Part shown: positions 3,824-55,673 of the stretch, one piece after another
Layout of the letters: the number at the start of each line of letters is the position of its first letter
Position numbering within the stretch: position 1 is the first letter of the stretch
From: a virus
Lineage: Duplodnaviria > Caudoviricetes
Strand: one strand, 5' to 3'
IMG/VR virus record: IMGVR_UViG_3300006056_000001
Span: 64,001 to 128,000 of that record
DNA: 64,000 nt
Made by a program: the position numbers and the translations under genes
Notes under the pieces: model-generated
The model's database searches: none
Told to the model about the DNA's origin: nothing
The model's input: only the letters and a program-made list of their open reading frames with translations

Positions 3824-5949
3824 TTGGGCTCCTGCGGCTTAACAAAGCTTAAGAAAAAATTTGCATTATCTTCAGTAGGCATAAATTTTTTGTATATTAG
3901 GTCGCTTATATCAAGTCCGGTACTCTCAAAAGTATCAGGATTAACGAGATCAATTGTTTTGCTGCCTACTTTTTTAGCAAATTTTATAAATCCAAATCTT
4001 TCTGCTGTTATTAGCTGTATATCAGTCAGATTTTTTATATCTTTATACAAATTATCTAATGCTTTAAACAAAGGCTTCACATCTACGTTATTATCTTTGT
4101 CACCTGACAAGTAAGACATAACTTCGTCTTTGTAAGGATTTAGTATTTTCCAGAAGGATTTATTTATAAAGTTAGTGTAAAACCTATCAATAGCTCTATT
4201 TCCTATTTCTTCAAAGTCTATATCAGAATCAGGATAAAAACTATCATATTGCTTCTTAGCTTTCTTATGTCCTTCTTCAATACAAATGTCTACGTATTCT
4301 TTTGAACTATCATAGCACTCTTTTACAAAATCTCTAAAGTAGTCTTCTACTAAAGAAATATCTGTAACATCGTTAGAAAGATCTATGATTTTTGTTTTTA
4401 GTTCTTTTACTTTATCTTCTATACAATCAAAATAATCATTGGCCTTAAATCTACTCTTAGCAGGTTTAGTTCCATATTGATTCTTTGGCTGACCTTTGTT
4501 AGAGACTTGTGCTTTTACAGCTTTCATTAGATCAGAGCCACCGCTTGCAGCGGCTCTAACAGATCCTTGTACTCTAACAATTTCTTTCTGTGCTTCTGTT
4601 TGCTGTTTAAGAGATATGTCATTTTTCTCTTCTTCAGACAGAGGCTGTTTATTAAGATACTGCTTTCTAAATTCAGATGCAGTAATTGCATTTGCCATAA
4701 AGAGCTGAGTACCGTGGTTTTGGTTTGCTCTTTCTTCTTCCCTGTCTATTGTTGGGAAGGTGAATCTAACCATGTTATCCTCTAAAACATCAAATCCACC
4801 CTCTAAAAGTAGAGGAAGAATAACAAAGTGAGTTAGATGGTCAGAAATTACTTGTTGATAGTCTTTAGCAGAATCCTGTAGTCCTTTATTTAAGTTGGTT
4901 GCTGTTCCTCTTGAGAAAGCTCCACCACGACCTAAATCTAGAGGAGAAAGGCGTAAGCCTGCTACAACTCTAGCTTCAAAGTAGTCTAAATAAGGCCCTA
5001 AATCAAGGGCTGCGCCCTCACGGCTAACTAGCTTAACTTCATGTCTTTCACTAGTTACAATGAAACCTTGTGCTGGAAGTGTGGTTACTTGATCTGCAAC
5101 CATATCTACTTCTGAGCCGCCGCCTTCAAACAGAGTAGCTGGCTTAGTTTCTGTTCCTACTTTATAGTGATAAAGAGGAAATGCTTCTTTACCAGCCATA
5201 ATAATAGCTACTTCTTCTAGCTTTCTTAATGCTCTAATATCATCTAATACAGGAAGTAAGTAAGGAGTGCCGAATGTAAATCCTGTTTTCTTATCTAATG
5301 TAATATGTACTACATCTTCAACAGCGTATGTTTTTGAATAACTACTATCTCCATCTCCGTCTATTTTCTGTCTCCAAGCTTTAGGTGTGCCATACTTATC
5401 AACAGAGACTTCCATAGTTGTTGGATCACCAACAAATATTCCTGCTATAGGATCTAGTTCTATTCCGTATACTTTTATTCTTTTTCCGCTTGATCTATTA
5501 GGGTCACGTCTAAATATTAAATATGCATTATGAAAAGTAATAAGATTTGTAACTAATTCTCTAAGCCACTGTTCTGTAGTAATCCCTGTTAAAAGTGTTA
5601 TTTCAAATAATCTTTGCTTAATATAAGAAATCATAGCCTCATCAGAACCAGATATTTGATAGCCTTCTTTTAGAATCTGTTCTCTGTGCTTTCGAACCGA
5701 TTGTGAAATATAAGGCTCTATATCTGATGCTCTAGAGATCTCTGCTAGATCATAAACAGGAGGATTAAACTTAGATCTAGGCGTTACTCTTAAATCTCCA
5801 GCGCCCTTAAATTCATAGCTTCTTACTCTGCCGAGCATCTTCGTTTTACGCTCTAAAGCAGAAGTTATCTCTTTCTTTCGGGCTCCTGAAACTATTAGTT
5901 TTATGTCTTTGCCTAATAGGGGGGATTCAAGATATATAGGATCAACCAT
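3820..5949 (-). CDS. Portal protein
   Basis: 709 aa; NAYL, DPTTM, EDVVHI, FGTPYLLPVLDDIRALRKLEE motifs; position between terminase and protease. Confidence 0.82.
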   Translation of the reverse strand: MVDPIYLESPLLGKDIKLIVSGARKKEITSALERKTKMLGRVRSYEFKGAGDLRVTPRSKFNPPVYDLAEISRASDIEPYISQSVRKHREQILKEGYQISGSDEAMISYIKQRLFEITLLTGITTEQWLRELVTNLITFHNAYLIFRRDPNRSSGKRIKVYGIELDPIAGIFVGDPTTMEVSVDKYGTPKAWRQKIDGDGDSSYSKTYAVEDVVHITLDKKTGFTFGTPYLLPVLDDIRALRKLEEVAIIMAGKEAFPLYHYKVGTETKPATLFEGGGSEVDMVADQVTTLPAQGFIVTSERHEVKLVSREGAALDLGPYLDYFEARVVAGLRLSPLDLGRGGAFSRGTATNLNKGLQDSAKDYQQVISDHLTHFVILPLLLEGGFDVLEDNMVRFTFPTIDREEERANQNHGTQLFMANAITASEFRKQYLNKQPLSEEEKNDISLKQQTEAQKEIVRVQGSVRAAASGGSDLMKAVKAQVSNKGQPKNQYGTKPAKSRFKANDYFDCIEDKVKELKTKIIDLSNDVTDISLVEDYFRDFVKECYDSSKEYVDICIEEGHKKAKKQYDSFYPDSDIDFEEIGNRAIDRFYTNFINKSFWKILNPYKDEVMSYLSGDKDNNVDVKPLFKALDNLYKDIKNLTDIQLITAERFGFIKFAKKVGSKTIDLVNPDTFESTGLDISDLIYKKFMPTEDNANFFLSFVKPQEPK

Positions 5950-33072: not shown

Positions 33073-33603
33073 TTAGATATAAGTTTTATTTAACCTGCCA
33101 TGTTCTTCTCTATGGCAGTTAGCACAAAGAAGAATACACTTATCTAATTCTATTTTACCTTCTATAGATAAAGGTCTTTTAGAAAATTTAGACATCTCAA
33201 AATCTTTTTCATTTTTGTTTTTATGATGAAATTCTAAAGCACCATTAAATTTATTATAACCACATATTTCACATTTACCTCCTTTATAATCTAATGCCTC
33301 TTGTTTATATTTTCTTAATCTATCAATAGCATTTCTATTGATACATTTTTTACACCAAGAACCTTGTCTTGGATGTTTTCCAGATTGAAAGTAATACTCA
33401 CCTTTAGATTTTAATATATTACAATTAGGACAAATTTTTTCTCCTATTTTATTTACTTTTTCTATATTTGATTCATTTTTCTTTATTTTATATTTAACTA
33501 AATAATATCTTATACTTGTTTGTGATTTATTTAGTTTTTTTCCTATATCTCTTTGAGATAAGTCTTGATTTATATATAAATCAATAAGTTGTTCTTTGTT
33601 CAT
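33073..33603 (-). CDS. HNH homing endonuclease with N-terminal HTH
   Basis: CEICGY..ALEFHH...ELDKCILLCANCHREEH; N-terminal LSQRDIGKKL..SQTSIRYYL. Confidence 0.88.
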   Translation of the reverse strand: MNKEQLIDLYINQDLSQRDIGKKLNKSQTSIRYYLVKYKIKKNESNIEKVNKIGEKICPNCNILKSKGEYYFQSGKHPRQGSWCKKCINRNAIDRLRKYKQEALDYKGGKCEICGYNKFNGALEFHHKNKNEKDFEMSKFSKRPLSIEGKIELDKCILLCANCHREEHGRLNKTYI

Positions 33604-33622: not shown

Positions 33623-33715
33623 TGGGATGTGACCGGAGCTAGGTCGACTGGACCAGCCTTTTAAGCTGGAGAGGGGTAACCCTCCGCGTGGGTTCGAATC
33701 CCACCATCCCAACCA
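33623..33715 (+). tRNA. tRNA with TTT (Lys) anticodon and long variable arm
   Basis: TGGGATG/CATCCCA, CCAGC-CTTTTAA-GCTGG, variable hairpin GAGGG/CCCTC, canonical T-arm, ACCA. Confidence 0.75.
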
Positions 33716-35652: not shown

Positions 35653-36081
35653 ATGGATTTAAAAGAATCATTAAAAATAGCACTTGCTGATACTTTTGCT
35701 ATGTATTGGAAGGCCCACGAGTTCCATTGGAACGTAGTAGGTCCTAACTTCAGCGAATATCATTCTTTCTTTGGTGATTTATATGATGAACTTTGGGATG
35801 CATTAGATGTTATTGCTGAGCAAATTAGAATGCAAAAGACATTTATTCCTTCTTTAGAGAGACTATTATCTGTAAAGACTATTTCTGTATCTACTGGTCC
35901 TGTAGAGGCTTCTGTTATGATGAAGCAGCTATTACAAGATAATAAGAAAGTAATGGAATCATTACAATCAGCATATACTCTTGCTGAAGAAGCAGGTGAA
36001 TTTGCTTTATCAAATATTATACAAGATAGACTAAGCGCCCATGCTAAACATGGCTGGATGCTTGAATCATTTACTCAGTAA
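35653..36081 (+). CDS. dps: Dps/ferritin-like DNA-protection protein
   Basis: KAHEFHWNVVGPNF..YH..F..LY..L....D.IAEQIR; H.KHGWML. Confidence 0.92.
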   Translation: MDLKESLKIALADTFAMYWKAHEFHWNVVGPNFSEYHSFFGDLYDELWDALDVIAEQIRMQKTFIPSLERLLSVKTISVSTGPVEASVMMKQLLQDNKKVMESLQSAYTLAEEAGEFALSNIIQDRLSAHAKHGWMLESFTQ

Positions 36082-36089
36082 ATGAGCAT

Positions 36090-36175
36090 GCCGGTGTGGC
36101 GAAATGGCAGTTGCGCGAGATTTAGGTTCTCGTGTCCGTAAGGACGTGTGGGTTCAAGTCCCTCCATCGGCACCA
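36090..36175 (+). tRNA. tRNA-Leu(TAG)
   Basis: CGAGA-TTTAGGT-TCTCG; long V arm; CCA. Confidence 0.9.
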
Positions 36176-36232: not shown

Positions 36233-37822
36233 ATGAATAAAAACCTTTTTAGCAATAAAACTCCTGGAAAGACTATCCCAGCTCCAAATACTGTTAATAA
36301 TGCTGGTGGACTTGCTTACTTAAGAGATGATGAATCTCAGTTAGCACAACTAGCTATTACAGGTTGCTTTGGAAATACTTACTATGTAAGTGCAGATAGC
36401 CAGCTAAAAGACGTTATTGCTTTAGCAAAGAAGTGCTCTCCTTTGTTTGTAGCACAAACGGCTATCTATGCTCGTAAGCAGGGCATGATGAAGGATATGC
36501 CGGCTGTATTAGCTGCTGTACTATCTACCAGAGATCTTCCTCTATTAAAGCAGATCTTCCCTGTTGTTATTGATAATGTTAAAATGTTACGTAACTTTGT
36601 ACAAGTTATTAGATCTGGCGTAGTAGGAAGAAAGAGCTTTGGTACTGCTCTAAAGAATCTGATACGTCAATATTTTAACAACAAGACGCCTGAGCAACTA
36701 TTTAAGCAGTCTCTTGGTACTTCTCCTTCCATTGGAGATATTATCAAGATGGTACATCCTAAGCCGAAGGATGAGGCTACTTCTATGACTTTTGCTTACT
36801 TAACTGGTAAGGAAGTCTTAGCTAAGGGCGCTCTACCCCAGCTATTACAGGATTACATGGCATTCCGTGAAGATCAGACTAAGGCTATGCCTAATCTGAA
36901 TTTCCAGTTCCTTTCTAGTCTACCTTTGACTAAGGAACAATGGACTCAGCTTTGTCTGACGTCTACATATAATACTTTACGTATGAACTTGAATACTTTT
37001 AATAGACATGGTGTATTTAAGGATAATACTGTAACTTCTAAGGTTATTGCCCGCTTGACTGATCCTAAGGAGATCAAGAAGAGCAAGGTAATGCCTTATC
37101 AGATTTATAGCGCATATAAGCATATTGATAGTGAATTGCCTCCTGGTATGGCTCAAGCTCTTGCCAAGGCTGCAGATATTTCCTTAGATAATATTCCTGA
37201 CTTACCTGCTAACTTGGTTATTGGTCTAGATACCAGTGGTAGTATGAGTTCTACTGTTACTGGTAATCGTGGAAGTGCTTCTTCCAAGATGAAGTATATT
37301 GATGTAGCTGCCTTGATGGCAGCAGCTATTGTGTCTAAGTGTCCAACTGCTACTGTTATTCCTTTTGATACTCGTTATCATAAAGGATTTAAGATGAAGG
37401 GTAGTATCGTAGATACTGCTGAAGCTTTATCTAAGTTTGGTGGCGGTGGTACTGAATGTTCTATTCCTATTCAAGAAGCAGCTAAGATGTCTAATGTAGA
37501 TGCTATTATAATTATCTCTGATAATGAGAGCTGGGCTTCTACTGCTCGCGACTCCATGACTGAATGGAGAAAGGTACAGAAGAAGAATCCTAATGCTAAG
37601 TTAATTAATATTGATATATCACCCTCACACTCTACCCAAACAAAGGATGAGCAAAATATTATAAATATTGGTGGATTTTCTGACTCTGTATTTAATGTTA
37701 TCTCTAACTATTTAAGTGGATCCATTGATCAGTGGATTGAAATTATTGAGAAAATCGATATTAGTAATACTCCTGTGACTACTACGTCTGTAGAGACGTC
37801 TGTAGAAAATACAGAAGAGTAA
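36233..37822 (+). CDS. rsr: Ro60/Rsr TROVE-domain RNA-binding protein with vWA domain
   Basis: N-terminal VNNAGGLAY and G.FGNTYY; LRMNLNTF; MIDAS DTSGSM; GGGT; IIISDNESW. Confidence 0.92.
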   Translation: MNKNLFSNKTPGKTIPAPNTVNNAGGLAYLRDDESQLAQLAITGCFGNTYYVSADSQLKDVIALAKKCSPLFVAQTAIYARKQGMMKDMPAVLAAVLSTRDLPLLKQIFPVVIDNVKMLRNFVQVIRSGVVGRKSFGTALKNLIRQYFNNKTPEQLFKQSLGTSPSIGDIIKMVHPKPKDEATSMTFAYLTGKEVLAKGALPQLLQDYMAFREDQTKAMPNLNFQFLSSLPLTKEQWTQLCLTSTYNTLRMNLNTFNRHGVFKDNTVTSKVIARLTDPKEIKKSKVMPYQIYSAYKHIDSELPPGMAQALAKAADISLDNIPDLPANLVIGLDTSGSMSSTVTGNRGSASSKMKYIDVAALMAAAIVSKCPTATVIPFDTRYHKGFKMKGSIVDTAEALSKFGGGGTECSIPIQEAAKMSNVDAIIIISDNESWASTARDSMTEWRKVQKKNPNAKLINIDISPSHSTQTKDEQNIINIGGFSDSVFNVISNYLSGSIDQWIEIIEKIDISNTPVTTTSVETSVENTEE

Positions 37823-37829
37823 CACATCT

Positions 37830-37919
37830 TGGTGAATGCAGAGTAGGATTACATTGTAACCATAATAACAAGCGGCCTTAGAAAGGCCGTTAAAACGGTC
37901 TTACTCACTTTTGTCACCA
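37830..37919 (+). ncRNA. Y RNA-like unit 1 (hairpin module)
   Basis: TGGTGA/TCACCA, GAATGC, GAGTAGGATT/GGTCTTACTC; module CGGCCT/AGGCCG hairpin. Confidence 0.75.
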
Positions 37920-37931
37920 TTTCATTATTCT

Positions 37932-37997
37932 AGCGGATGCTGACAGGACTACATTACTTGCTTTGTAAACATAGTGTCTTGTTAATAACTTGCCGCT
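37932..37997 (+). ncRNA. Y RNA-like unit 2 (minimal)
   Basis: AGCGG/CCGCT, GGATGC, TGACAGGAC/GTCTTGTTA, short loop. Confidence 0.7.
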
Positions 37998-38004
37998 TTA
38001 TTCT

Positions 38005-38132
38005 TGACGAATGCTCGAAGGGTTTACATTCATACGGAGAACGTGGACCAGGTGCGATTCCTGGAACCCCGACCATCGGGGTCATGGTGTAACAGTAGCA
38101 CACGAAAATAGACTCTTCAATTCTTGTCGTCA
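38005..38132 (+). ncRNA. Y RNA-like unit 3 (YrlA-type permuted tRNA domain)
   Basis: TGACGA/TCGTCA, GAATGC; T-arm CCAGG/CCTGG, acceptor hairpin ACCCCGA-CCA-TCGGGGT, D-arm. Confidence 0.85.
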
Positions 38133-38141
38133 TTTCTTTAT

Positions 38142-38275
38142 TGATCGAATGCTCTAAGGGATTACAATTCACTGTTAATGAAAAGGTCGTTGGTTCGAGT
38201 CCAACCCACCCCGCCAATGGGGTGGTAGCTCAGTTGGTAGAGCGTTAAAATAGTCTCTTAAATTTTTGTCGATCA
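38142..38275 (+). ncRNA. Y RNA-like unit 4 containing a complete permuted tRNA-Asn(GTT)
   Basis: TGATCGA/TCGATCA; TTCA-CTGTTAA-TGAA, T-arm, CCACCCC-GCCA-AT-GGGGTGG, TAGCTCAGTTGGTAGAGC. Confidence 0.85.
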
Positions 38276-38284
38276 TATTTTTCT

Positions 38285-38418
38285 ATAAGTGAATGCCTGA
38301 AAGGAATTACATTTTTTTTGAACAAAGAGGGACTGGGTTCGAATCCCAGCTTAGCTCGAAAGAGCTATGTGTTGTAATGGTAGCACTAAAACAATTTCTT
38401 TCGATTCTTGTCACTTAT
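38285..38418 (+). ncRNA. Y RNA-like unit 5 (YrlA-type)
   Basis: ATAAGTGA/TCACTTAT, GAATGC; T-arm CTGGG-TTCGAAT-CCCAG; TAGCTC-GAAA-GAGCTA; D-arm. Confidence 0.85.
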
Positions 38419-38424
38419 TTTCCT

Positions 38425-38547
38425 TCCGAATGCAGTTAGGACTACAATAACACTCTGGTGGTCAGAGGTTCAATTCCTCTAGTCCGCGAAAGCGGGCATA
38501 GCTCAGTGGTAGAGCACCAGATAAAGGTCTTAACAAATATCGTCGGA
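38425..38547 (+). ncRNA. Y RNA-like unit 6 (canonical YrlA-type)
   Basis: TCCGA/TCGGA, GAATGC; TCTGGTG/CACCAGA; T-arm AGAGG/CCTCT; GTCCGC-GAAA-GCGGGC; TAGCTCAGTGGTAGAGC. Confidence 0.88.
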
Positions 38548-39130
38548 TTTTCTTTTTAGAATAACAAAATGATAGAATTCTTCACAGGACTGATTCTTGG
38601 ATTAGGATGGTGGTGGATTCCTATCCTTTCATTAGGCTCTATTATTCTAGATAGAACTGAACATTATTTTTGGTCATTAGTAACTACTATTCTTATCTTT
38701 GTTTCTTGTTTAGTATTACTTAATCTTTCTTGGCAGTATATATTTTATATTGCTATTTTTTACATTCCAGTAGGATTTTTATGGTCCTTCTGGAGATGGT
38801 ATCAAAATTGTAAGAAAGTAATTAACGAAATAGAAGATAAATATAATAGTAATTATATTCCTAGTAATTATACACTAGACAACTTAGAAGATAAGGTTGC
38901 AATTCATCTTAACTTACATAGAATTACTGGGTGGGTATTATCCTGGCCAGTAAGTATTTTCTGTTATTTACTTGAAGATGTACTAGTATCTATTGAAAAA
39001 ACTATTAGAAATATATCTAAGTATACATATACAAAATGGTCTGATGAAGCTGTCTCTAAAATTAGAGATATTAAAAATAAAAAAGAATCTAAAGACTTAG
39101 AAGATTACAGTTAAGTATATTGATCTTTAA

Positions 39131-39207
39131 CCCCAGGTAGCTCAGTTGGTTAGAGTTTTCGTCTGATAAGCGAAGGGTCGGAGGTTCGAGTCCTCCCCTG
39201 GGGACCA
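39131..39207 (+). tRNA. tRNA-Ile(GAT)
   Basis: TTCGT-CTGATAA-GCGAA; CCA. Confidence 0.9.
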
Positions 39208-39210
39208 CAT

Positions 39211-39286
39211 GGGGTCGTAGTTCAATTGGCAGAACATTGGCTTTGCAAGTCAAGGGTTGAGGGTTCAAGTCCCTCCGATTCCACCA
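39211..39286 (+). tRNA. tRNA-Ala(TGC)
   Basis: TTGGC-TTTGCAA-GTCAA; G3:U70; CCA. Confidence 0.92.
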
Positions 39287-55437: not shown

Positions 55438-55584
55438 GGGTTCATAGCATAATGGTTAATGCTTTCTCAAACAAAAGCGGCTTAGATGACTCAGTAAGAT
55501 CACCCGGTATACAGGGCCTTGACTAAGTATTTAGGTTGGGAGTCACAACTCTCGATAGGGGTTCGATTCCCCTTGAATCCACCA
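55438..55584 (+). ncRNA. tRNA-like RNA with G3:U70 and ~65-nt hairpin in the anticodon arm
   Basis: GGGTTCA/TGAATCC-ACCA; normal D- and T-arms; TTCTCAA/TTGGGAG stem enclosing long hairpin. Confidence 0.7.
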
Positions 55585-55598
55585 TCTTATTTTTGTAT

Positions 55599-55673
55599 GC
55601 GGACATAATTCAATGGTAGAATGATAGCCTTCCAAGCTATTCGTTGTCGGTTCGAGTCCGACTGCCCGCTCCA
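55599..55673 (+). tRNA. tRNA-Gly(TCC)
   Basis: ATAGC-CTTCCAA-GCTAT; U73 CCA. Confidence 0.9.

What the first reader, a model, noticed from the sequence alone, without database searches (positions are those of the whole stretch)
36233..38547. Phage Ro60 with a six-unit modular Y-RNA array: constant handle, variable effector
Seen: 8 nt after the TROVE stop begin six tandem units (37830, 37932, 38005, 38142, 38285, 38425) separated by short U-rich spacers. All share a terminal helix, G(A/G)ATGC opposite a pyrimidine-rich loop usually ending TTG, and a second 9-10-bp helix followed by TACA. Helix sequences differ but pairing is preserved (covariation within one genome). The apical modules differ: a plain hairpin, a bare loop, three YrlA-type permuted tRNA domains and a full permuted tRNA. 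Established: bacterial and some phage Ro60 genes have adjacent Y RNAs (YrlA/YrlB) with a GNCGAAN-G motif that tether effectors such as PNPase. Inference: an array-encoded, exchangeable-RNA RNP in which one Ro60 ring displays different tRNA mimics, e.g. decoys for anticodon nucleases or adaptors for RNA repair and decay. I know of no description of a six-member diversified array.
Basis: partly seen in the sequence, partly recalled or inferred. Interest (0 to 1): 0.92.

Follow-up and report, generated by a model that had tools for sequence, protein, structure and literature searches.

The report
Phage Ro60 gene with six Y RNAs
A 190-kb phage carries a bacterial-type Ro60 RNA-binding protein gene followed by six small partner RNAs that share one Ro60-binding handle but have different tips; the array is real, but similar arrays sit beside related Ro60 genes in many phages and bacteria, so it is a large example of a common, under-described layout.

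Summary
ORF 36233-37822 is a full-length Ro60/Rsr (TROVE plus vWA with MIDAS). Seven nucleotides after its stop lie six same-strand units with one handle: helix S1, AUGC loop, helix S2, UACA, then S2', a loop ending UUG or UCG, and S1'. Both helices covary among the units. Two covariance models built here find only these six units as real matches in the 189.7-kb genome. Units 3-6 are YrlA-type permuted tRNA domains. Unit 4 is a complete permuted tRNA-Asn (GUU, G73, encoded CCA). Units 1-2 are short and YrlB-like.

"Constant handle, variable effector" is the established Y-RNA model, and the decoy idea is untested. The array is not unusual: 18 of 72 viral Ro60 loci have at least 4 units (up to 11). 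Arrays of 4-9 also flank rsr in metagenome contigs and bacterial genomes, including cultured isolates and one rtcR-rsr-(7 units)-rtcB operon. Papers I could search describe at most two Y RNAs per phage. This scan's earlier notes report similar arrays on other DNA.

Anticodon-like hairpins are commoner in phage units (13/62) than in bacterial units (2/142). Verdict: new variant of a known kind, moderate interest.

The parts
36233..37822 (+). Ro60/Rsr gene (529 aa): TROVE/HEAT ring plus vWA domain with a MIDAS motif (DTSGS)
   Evidence: Pfam vWA_Ro60 68.6 bits and TROVE 30.9 bits, both above cut-off. Full-length alignment to D. radiodurans Rsr 2NVO (E 2.5e-23), Thermus phage phiLo Ro60 9KOP (1.5e-17) and Xenopus/human Ro60. 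PHROG 850 'RNA-binding protein', E 6.5e-36. About 50% identical to many bacterial Rsr proteins.
37830..37919 (+). Y RNA unit 1: handle plus a 46-nt apical module with a 9-bp GC-rich hairpin (short, YrlB-like)
   Evidence: Fold -29.8 kcal/mol, z -4.4. R1 29.4 bits, E 2e-5. R2 41.2 bits. It was in neither training set.
37932..37997 (+). Y RNA unit 2: handle closing a bare 26-nt loop (shortest, YrlB-like)
   Evidence: R1 43.8 bits, but it was in R1's training set. R2 33.7 bits, not in R2's training set. Anatomy.
38005..38132 (+). Y RNA unit 3: YrlA-type permuted tRNA domain with an unusual T-loop (UGCGAUU) and an acceptor hairpin loop reading A-CCA-U
   Evidence: Rfam YrlA 26.8 bits. R1 31.1 bits, not in training. 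R2 94.8 bits. Its closest apical modules are L079:3024 and L048:3132.
38142..38275 (+). Y RNA unit 4: complete circularly permuted tRNA-Asn. Anticodon arm 38167-38183 (GUU at 38174-38176), T-arm 38189-38205, acceptor 3' strand 38206-38212, G73 at 38213, CCA at 38214-38216, 2-nt link, acceptor 5' strand 38219-38225, D-arm 38228-38243. The handle takes the place of the 26/27 junction.
   Evidence: Rfam YrlA 56 bits. R2 116.9 bits. After in-silico un-permutation ARAGORN calls tRNA-Asn(GTT) of 75-76 nt. ARAGORN calls no tRNA here in the native order.
38285..38418 (+). Y RNA unit 5: YrlA-type permuted tRNA domain; acceptor hairpin closed by a GAAA loop
   Evidence: Rfam YrlA 20.5 bits. R1 40.1 bits, not in training. 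R2 97.7 bits.
38425..38547 (+). Y RNA unit 6: canonical YrlA layout. A 5-bp anticodon-stem remnant (CUGGU/ACCAG) joins the handle to the T-arm, a GAAA-capped acceptor hairpin and the D-arm.
   Evidence: Rfam YrlA 49.2 bits. R2 89.1 bits. Fold z -4.2.
36090..36175 (+). tRNA-Leu(UAG) 57 nt upstream of the Ro60 start; likely in the same transcription unit
   Evidence: ARAGORN and Rfam tRNA 45.1 bits. No convincing promoter or terminator lies between it and the array.
39131..39286 (+). tRNA-Ile(GAU) and tRNA-Ala(UGC) downstream; the cassette sits inside the phage tRNA cluster
   Evidence: ARAGORN finds 24 tRNAs, all on the + strand, from 33.6 to 62 kb. Rfam tRNA 67.5 and 67.6 bits.

Best explanation
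This is a bacterial-type rsr (Ro60) plus Y-RNA cassette carried by a 190-kb phage inside its tRNA gene cluster.

Shown: the protein is an intact Ro60. The six RNAs share the handle that marks Y RNAs of this Ro60 clade. Both helices are kept by covariation. The handle always lies on the Ro60 strand next to related Ro60 genes.

Inferred, step 1: Ro60 mRNA, the six units and the flanking tRNAs are made as one transcript. Host tRNA and RNase E-type processing cuts it at the 6-12 nt U-rich spacers. The precedent is M. smegmatis YrlA/YrlB, which come from one precursor.

Inferred, step 2: each unit binds the Ro60 ring through S1, the AUGC/UUG loop and S2. The infected cell then holds six kinds of Ro60 particle that differ only in the apical module.

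Inferred, step 3: the modules act as adaptors or gates, as in the Rsr-Y RNA-PNPase machine of Deinococcus and Salmonella and the phiLo Ro60-Yrl-PNPase complex. They would tether Ro60 to host exoribonuclease and to tRNA-recognising proteins, steering decay or quality control of structured RNAs (tRNA, rRNA) during infection.

Inferred, step 4: units 3 and 4 carry an encoded N73-CCA in the acceptor loop. RNase P may nick them to expose a real CCA end, as happens with M. smegmatis YrlA. Unit 4 would then display a near-perfect tRNA-Asn on Ro60.
For: Ro60 identity.

Handle and covariation within the array.

Across loci: A3 82.5% paired against 55% shuffled, with S1 98.5%. A4 has 27 of 30 pairs with compensatory changes. 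A5 is 95.3% paired against 59% shuffled and 38-52% when partners are slid.

Specificity: no other real hit in the genome.

Linkage to Ro60: 88/88 R1 hits and 164/164 R2 hits in viral loci, 218/218 in metagenome loci and 292/293 in bacterial genome loci lie on the Ro60 strand.

Co-transcription: a 7-nt gap after the stop, 6-12 nt U-rich spacers, and no promoter or terminator signal above shuffles apart from hairpins inside the units. Y units alternate with tRNA genes in other phage loci such as L019, L018 and L069.

Published precedents: Rsr binds YrlA and YrlB; they come from a single precursor; RNase P cuts M. smegmatis YrlA and CCA is added (PMC4201824). YrlA has a tRNA fold (10.1101/312249). 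Phage phiLo Ro60 binds two Yrl RNAs and host PNPase in vitro (PMC12135203).
Against: There are no expression, processing or binding data for this phage.

Units 3-6 are below Rfam's YrlA gathering score, and the protein is far below NCBIfam's Rsr equivalog cut-off (82 against 900 bits).

The partner of the tRNA-like domain is unknown even in model bacteria (10.1101/312249).

The phage lacks RtcB, Rnl2-type ligase and CCA-adding enzyme, so the bacterial repair-operon context (L130) is missing. A PNPase link is by analogy only.

The covariation statistics across loci come from sequences picked or aligned by pairing-aware methods, which inflates the percentage paired.
Confidence: 0.62

Rival explanations
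1. Counter-defence decoys. The tRNA-like tips, above all the complete tRNA-Asn mimic of unit 4, are displayed or protected by Ro60. They soak up or sense host tRNA-targeting defence nucleases (anticodon nucleases, PARIS-type, retron effectors), or they stand in for cleaved tRNAs.
For: The cassette lies inside the phage tRNA cluster. Phage tRNAs are known to neutralise tRNA-cleaving defences (PMC11464382, PMC11555353, PMC10264068). Anticodon-like hairpins occur in 13 of 62 tRNA-like units in viral loci against 2 of 142 in bacterial genomes (Fisher p 4e-6). The loop CUGUUAA (Asn) recurs in three unrelated phage contigs. Unit 4 keeps GUU, G73 and CCA.
Against: Only one of the six units here has an anticodon loop. 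Units 1 and 2 have no tRNA features at all. The same arrays occur in bacteria, which have no need to evade their own defences. The enrichment rests on one simple hairpin rule and on the best 150 bacterial hits only. No defence nuclease is known to be inhibited by a Y RNA.
Confidence: 0.17
2. Gates and stabilisers only. The Y RNAs mainly cover the Ro60 ring to regulate access of misfolded RNAs and to stabilise the protein. The several copies give dosage and robustness, and the different tips have no separate partners.
For: A gating role for Y RNAs is established for Ro60 in animals and proposed for bacteria (own knowledge of the reviews cited in PMC12135203). The apical modules of units 1 and 2 have no detectable relatives elsewhere; their best local scores are 23-24 against a median of 12-14.
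Against: tRNA-like modules keep T-, D- and acceptor arms by covariation across hundreds of units. Distinct module types recur across genomes: the u3 type appears in L079 and L048, and two D-arm classes recur. Both points argue for selection on the tips themselves.
Confidence: 0.13
3. Not trans-acting RNAs. The region is a structured 3' UTR or processing platform of the Ro60 mRNA, or decayed remnants of tRNA genes in the cluster.
For: The units lie between two ORFs in a tRNA cluster. Tandem tRNA pairs give partial false hits with YrlA-type models, for example 39163-39245 and 55519-55651.
Against: All six carry the same non-tRNA handle with covarying helices. Homologous units are discrete Rsr-bound RNAs in Salmonella and M. 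smegmatis (PMC4201824). The handle recurs beside related Ro60 genes in about 200 independent loci.
Confidence: 0.03

Closest known systems
Salmonella Typhimurium rsr-yrlBA-rtcBA and M. smegmatis yrlA-yrlB-rsr (Rsr with YrlA/YrlB; Rfam RF02553; PMC4201824, 10.1101/312249)
   Same: Same protein architecture. The RNAs lie on the same strand within a few hundred nt of rsr. The handle consensus is the same (CGAAUGC ... CUAC ... CUUGUCG in the Rfam model). Both mix short YrlB-like units with permuted tRNA-like YrlA units. A polycistronic origin is shown in M. smegmatis.
   Different: There are six units instead of two. No rtcR, rtcB or rtcA is present, and the host is a phage tRNA cluster. Unit 4 has a full anticodon stem-loop and an encoded G73-CCA, whereas published YrlA 'lacks the anticodon loop' and a free CCA end. 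Scores are below the Rfam gathering threshold.
Thermus phage phiLo Ro60 with Yrl1 and Yrl2 (PMC12135203; PDB 9KOP, 9L5Y)
   Same: A phage-encoded Ro60 with adjacent phage-encoded Y-like RNAs. In vitro it forms a complex with host PNPase.
   Different: The protein is only about 25% identical. There are two RNAs, located upstream, with a different handle; my models R1 and R2 find nothing in that locus.
Deinococcus radiodurans Rsr-Yrn1-PNPase machine (RYPER; cited in PMC4201824)
   Same: It is the mechanistic template: a Y RNA tethers the Ro60 ring to an exoribonuclease.
   Different: The Y RNA lineage and handle differ. No PNPase link is shown here.
Vertebrate Y RNA gene clusters (hY1, hY3, hY4, hY5)
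   Same: Several paralogous Y RNAs share a Ro60-binding stem, differ in their loops, and are clustered in the genome (own knowledge).
   Different: They are separate Pol III genes, not one polycistron, and have no tRNA-like modules.
Multi-unit Y-RNA arrays beside related Ro60 genes found here (L065 with 11 units, L022 with 7, L139 with 9, L130 rtcR-rsr-7 units-rtcB, Undibacterium isolates with 6, Alysiella crassa DSM 2578 with 5)
   Same: Same handle, same strand as Ro60, tandem with short spacers, and a mix of short and tRNA-like units.
   Different: These are unpublished as far as I could search. Most bacterial units lack anticodon-like hairpins.

Membership tests
Ro60 / Rsr protein family | TROVE (HEAT-repeat ring) domain | tested here: met
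   PF05731 scores 30.9 bits against a cut-off of 23. Residues 19-497 align end to end with Rsr 2NVO.
Ro60 / Rsr protein family | C-terminal vWA domain with a MIDAS motif | tested here: met
   PF25045 vWA_Ro60 scores 68.6 bits against a cut-off of 27.7. The query's DTSGS aligns with DVSGS of 2NVO.
Ro60 / Rsr protein family | NCBIfam NF041674 Rsr equivalog cut-off | tested here: not met
   82.4 bits against a cut-off of 900. It is a family member by domains but is not called an equivalog by NCBI's strict rule.
Ro60 / Rsr protein family | Binds Y RNAs on the outer ring surface | not testable with these tools
   This needs EMSA or RIP.
YrlA (Rfam RF02553) | Score at or above Rfam's gathering threshold (69 bits) | tested here: not met
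   Units 4, 6, 3 and 5 score 56, 49.2, 26.8 and 20.5 bits, all as full-length model matches.
YrlA (Rfam RF02553) | Encoded within 4 kb of Ro60 on the same strand (the criterion of PMC4201824) | tested here: met
   All units lie 7-725 nt downstream of the stop codon on the + strand.
YrlA (Rfam RF02553) | GNCGAAN0-1G motif near the 5' end | tested here: inconclusive
   Unit 3 matches exactly (GACGAAUG). Units 4 and 6 keep CGAAUG without the first G. Units 1 and 5 have UGAAUG and unit 2 has CGGAUG. The changed bases are matched by compensating changes on the 3' strand.
YrlA (Rfam RF02553) | Permuted tRNA-like domain: T-arm, then acceptor-like hairpin, then D-arm | tested here: met
   Units 3-6 show this order. 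Covariation in all three arms is seen across 131 distinct units.
YrlA (Rfam RF02553) | Closed acceptor loop and no anticodon loop (described as typical in 10.1101/312249) | tested here: not met
   This is met for units 5 and 6 (GAAA loops). Unit 4 has a 7-nt anticodon loop and a G-CCA-AU acceptor loop, and unit 3 has A-CCA-U.
YrlB-type short Y RNAs | Ro60-type handle closing a simple hairpin or loop, encoded next to YrlA and rsr | tested here: met
   Units 1 and 2 fit. No curated model exists. My model R1 was built from 28 such units of 20 loci.
Genuine tRNA genes | Standard 5'-to-3' cloverleaf order recognised by tRNA finders | tested here: not met
   ARAGORN calls no tRNA at 37830-38547. Unit 4 is called tRNA-Asn only after its halves are swapped in silico.

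The most novel reading that the evidence does not exclude
Phage Ro60 arrays are a counter-defence or translation-hijack device. Phages have turned Y RNAs into Ro60-mounted, near-complete tRNA mimics with an anticodon loop, identity elements and a CCA end exposed by RNase P. These engage anticodon-reading host factors such as defence nucleases, aminoacyl-tRNA synthetases or modification enzymes. Each unit of the array would be aimed at a different factor. This would explain why anticodon-bearing units are enriched in phages relative to bacteria.
Probability: 0.15. Interest if true: 0.85.

Novelty: new variant of a known kind. Interest (0 to 1): 0.55.

Why it matters
What the tRNA-like domain of bacterial Y RNAs binds is a long-standing open question (10.1101/312249). 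Published work treats Ro60 as having one or two Y RNA partners per bacterium or phage.

This locus and the survey around it show three things. Arrays of four to eleven diversified Y RNAs are common beside this Ro60 clade. In phages they are woven into tRNA clusters. Some phage units are complete tRNA mimics. Unit 4 (tRNA-Asn identity elements plus CCA) gives a concrete, testable candidate for partner hunting: AsnRS, RNase P, EF-Tu and anticodon nucleases.

If the tips recruit different partners, Ro60 would be a programmable RNA-guided platform, and phages would be using it during infection. If not, the result still corrects the picture of Y-RNA copy number and supplies two models that could extend Rfam's coverage.

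Tried and rejected
DNA search of GenBank phages with the whole locus found only tRNA-like 60-80 nt matches and no relatives.

A single-protein scan of IMG/VR found no close relative. Array turnover among near relatives is therefore untested.

Myxococcus phage Mx1 has the closest named phage Ro60 (42% identity). It has no YrlA, R1 or R2 hit within 4 kb. The phiLo Yrl1/Yrl2 RNAs are also invisible to R1 and R2, so the models are clade-specific and are not a general Y-RNA detector.

R1 with filters off loses the long units because of its window limit, and was not used for the census. MAFFT alone misaligned the six units (A2). RNAalifold on A3 recovered only S1, so I gave the S2 pairs by hand.

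The 2020 Annual Review (PMC10870794) and the supplementary tables of PMC4201824 are not held. I therefore could not see how many YrlA copies per genome were already tabulated there.

Rejected readings: tRNA pseudogene debris and a tandem-tRNA artefact. A weak seventh 'unit' at 55519-55651 is a tRNA 3' half next to tRNA-Gly, with no handle. A phage-encoded repair module is also rejected, since no RtcB, Rnl2-type ligase or CCA-adding enzyme was found.
Full report
WHAT IS THERE

The window is bases 64001-128000 of a 189,716-bp IMG/VR phage record with direct terminal repeats. It carries 24 tRNA genes, all on the + strand, between 33.6 and 62 kb.

ORF 36233-37822 (529 aa) is a Ro60/Rsr protein. 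Pfam vWA_Ro60 (68.6 bits) and TROVE (30.9 bits) are both above cut-off. It matches PHROG 850 'RNA-binding protein'. It aligns end to end with Deinococcus Rsr 2NVO (E 2.5e-23), Thermus phage phiLo Ro60 (1.5e-17) and vertebrate Ro60, and the MIDAS motif DTSGS is in register. It falls well short of NCBIfam's strict Rsr equivalog score. It is about 50% identical to very many bacterial Rsr proteins. A few closer relatives (93-59%) come from contigs of phage-like size.

THE SIX UNITS

Seven nucleotides after the stop codon the first of six tandem units begins. My own dissection gives the same plan for every unit:
- S1, 5-8 bp.
- A 5' loop AUGC plus 0-2 nt.
- S2, 9-11 bp.
- (U)ACA.
- An apical module of 26-86 nt.
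- S2'.
- A 3' loop of 7-8 nt ending UUG (UCG in unit 6).
- S1'.

Spacers of 6-12 nt are 61% U with a single G. Thermodynamic folds recover this shape for all six. The units are not recent duplicates, because BLAST among them detects only the unit 3/unit 4 handles. Yet every position of S1 and S2 shows 2-4 different Watson-Crick or wobble pair types among the six.

IS IT MORE THAN CHANCE?

- A simple pairing descriptor finds the six units plus two weak sites on the + strand of the window, and none on the - strand.
- Handle model R1 was built from 27 short units of other loci plus unit 2. It finds units 1, 2, 3 and 5 and nothing else at E<=10 in 128 kb of searched strand.
- Model R2 was built from 22 tRNA-like units. 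Its RNAalifold consensus has 27 of 30 pairs with compensatory changes. It finds all six units in the whole genome, including units 1 and 2, which it was not trained on.
- The only other R2 hits are three weak ones: two partial matches, one of them at the tRNA-Ile/tRNA-Ala junction, and one full-length match that on inspection is a tRNA 3' half next to tRNA-Gly with no handle.
- Rfam's YrlA model matches units 3-6 over its full length, but below its gathering score.

THE MODULES

- Unit 1 carries a GC-rich hairpin.
- Unit 2 carries a bare loop.
- Units 3, 5 and 6 have the published YrlA order: T-arm, acceptor-like hairpin, D-arm.
- Unit 6 keeps a 5-bp anticodon-stem remnant. Units 5 and 6 cap the acceptor hairpin with GAAA.
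- Unit 3 has A-CCA-U in the acceptor loop.

Unit 4 has a 7-nt anticodon loop CUGUUAA, a 7-bp acceptor stem, G73, an encoded CCA and a 2-nt link. When its two halves are swapped in silico, ARAGORN calls a 75-76 nt tRNA-Asn(GTT). GUU plus G73 are, to my knowledge, the AsnRS identity elements. Published YrlA is described as lacking an anticodon loop and a free CCA end, with M. smegmatis YrlA as the exception: RNase P nicks it and it receives CCA (PMC4201824).

HOW COMMON IS THIS? THE SURVEY

I collected 80 viral contigs (72 distinct), 80 metagenome contigs and 80 bacterial or archaeal genome loci that encode relatives of this Ro60 at 35-50% identity.

Strand bias:
- R1 gave 88 hits in the viral loci, all on the Ro60 strand.
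- R2 gave 164 of 164 on the Ro60 strand in viral loci, 218 of 218 in metagenome loci and 292 of 293 in genome loci.
- The descriptor gave 106, 7 and 13 hits on the Ro60 strand, the opposite strand and shuffled sequence in the viral loci including the window. In the distinct loci of the three sets it gave 91, 169 and 195 hits on the Ro60 strand against 7, 13 and 23 on the opposite strand.

Array size, merging the three detectors over the 72 distinct viral loci:
- 46 have at least one unit.
- 27 have at least 3.
- 18 have at least 4.
- 5 have at least 6: L065 with 11 in tandem, L022 with 7, L056 with 7, L031 with 6 and L018 with 6.

Metagenome contigs reach 9 units (L139). L130 is a plain bacterial operon, rtcR-rsr-seven units-rtcB. 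Cultured bacteria show the same pattern: two Undibacterium isolates have 6, Alysiella crassa DSM 2578 has 5 and Ottowia thiooxydans has 4.

Covariation over the 131 distinct viral units is strong: 95.3% of cells paired, against 59% in shuffles and 38-52% when partners are slid, with 29 of 30 pairs showing double changes. The caveat is that this alignment was fitted to the model. The six-unit array is therefore in the upper tail of a common architecture and is not an oddity.

CONTEXT IN PHAGES

In many phage loci the units alternate with genuine tRNA genes on the same strand: L019, L018, L056, L065, L067 and L069. Here too the cassette lies between tRNA-Leu and tRNA-Ile/Ala. No promoter or terminator signal stands out between Ro60 and the next ORF at 38569. 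This points to co-transcription with tRNAs and shared processing. The phage has no RtcB, Rnl2-type RNA ligase or CCA-adding enzyme.

A PHAGE-SPECIFIC TWIST

By one simple rule (a 4-5 bp stem, a 7-nt loop with U33 and a purine at position 37, lying 3-6 nt before the T-arm), 13 of 62 tRNA-like units in viral loci carry an anticodon-like hairpin. In bacterial genome loci the figure is 2 of 142 (Fisher p 4e-6).

The Asn loop CUGUUAA recurs in three unrelated viral contigs. Only unit 4 and L022:2681 combine such a hairpin with a 7-bp acceptor and N-CCA. Module types also recur across genomes: the unit 3 type, with its odd T-loop, appears in L079 and L048.

This is suggestive, not proof. The bacterial sample is the best 150 hits, and relatedness was not corrected for.

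LITERATURE

- PMC4201824 reports 355 YrlA candidates in 254 bacteria and 22 phages, and at least two Y RNAs in each of three species studied. Its supplementary tables are not held.
- PMC12135203 describes two Y-like RNAs for phage phiLo and a complex with host PNPase.
- A jumbo-phage survey mentions TROVE proteins with 'a tRNA-like partner'.
- A Listeria phage paper only speculates about Y RNAs.

Searches for arrays, clusters or further Yrl names in prokaryotes found nothing. So multi-unit arrays appear uncatalogued in the papers I could search, although they are routine in sequence data. Earlier notes of this same scan report comparable arrays on other DNA and the permuted tRNA-Asn in this genome. 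I re-tested the latter myself.

MECHANISM

Shown: the identity of the protein, the shared covarying handle, its exclusive linkage to Ro60, and the module types.

Inferred: a polycistronic origin with processing at the U-rich spacers; binding of each unit to Ro60 through the handle; a population of Ro60 particles that differ in their tips; and recruitment of host PNPase-type exoribonuclease and tRNA-recognising proteins to remodel or police structured RNAs during infection.

I give this 0.62. The rivals are a decoy or counter-defence role (0.17), a gate-only role (0.13) and a cis-element or tRNA-debris reading (0.03).

LIMITS

Near relatives and RNA reads could not be examined.

R1 and R2 are specific to this Ro60 clade. 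They miss the phiLo RNAs and find nothing near the Mx1 Ro60.

VERDICT

This is a new variant of a known kind: a canonical Ro60/Y-RNA system with an expanded, diversified array and one complete tRNA mimic. Interest is moderate.

Noticed in passing
window 55519-55651: A tRNA 3'-half-like piece (T-arm GGGGTTCGATTCCCC followed by ...CCACCA) lies just upstream of tRNA-Gly (55599-55673). ARAGORN does not call it. It gave a weak tandem-tRNA-type hit with R2. It may be a split or decayed tRNA.
   Followed up: partly
window 33073-33603 (-): An HNH endonuclease ORF (PHROG 2255, E 4e-30) sits on the opposite strand inside the tRNA cluster, next to tRNA-Lys. That tRNA is called at an unusually long 93 nt (33623-33715).
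   Followed up: no
window 35653-36081 (+): A ferritin/Dps-like gene (PF00210, E 4.6e-19; PHROG 3636) lies immediately upstream of tRNA-Leu and the Ro60 cassette.
   Followed up: no
L065:5750-7815: A 165-kb viral contig has at least 11 tandem handle-bearing units after its Ro60 gene, with two tRNA genes interspersed. This is the largest array seen. The 9.6-kb stretch has only four ORFs of 90 aa or more.
   Followed up: partly
L130:897-6782: A bacterial metagenome contig carries rtcR (divergent), rsr, seven Y-RNA units (4316-5246) and rtcB. It is a Salmonella-type RNA repair operon with seven Y RNAs instead of two.
   Followed up: partly
L019:5841-7202: Y-RNA units and genuine tRNA genes alternate one by one on the same strand after Ro60. 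This implies shared transcription and processing.
   Followed up: no
A5 columns 25/281 and 26/280 (helix S2): One S2 pair is a G-U wobble in 93 of 126 distinct units, and its neighbour is G-C in 107. A conserved wobble inside an otherwise freely covarying helix is a candidate protein contact.
   Followed up: no
L001 (Myxococcus phage Mx1, OR576727.2 56915-58564): This is the closest named phage Ro60 (42% identity). No detectable Y-RNA unit lies within 4 kb by Rfam, R1 or R2. Two small 'hypothetical protein' ORFs are annotated directly downstream.
   Followed up: partly
L048:3431-3504 and L055:7842-7909: ARAGORN calls tRNA-Ile and tRNA-Ser inside Y-RNA units that carry anticodon-like hairpins. 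Some phage 'tRNA genes' in annotations may therefore be parts of Y RNAs.
   Followed up: no
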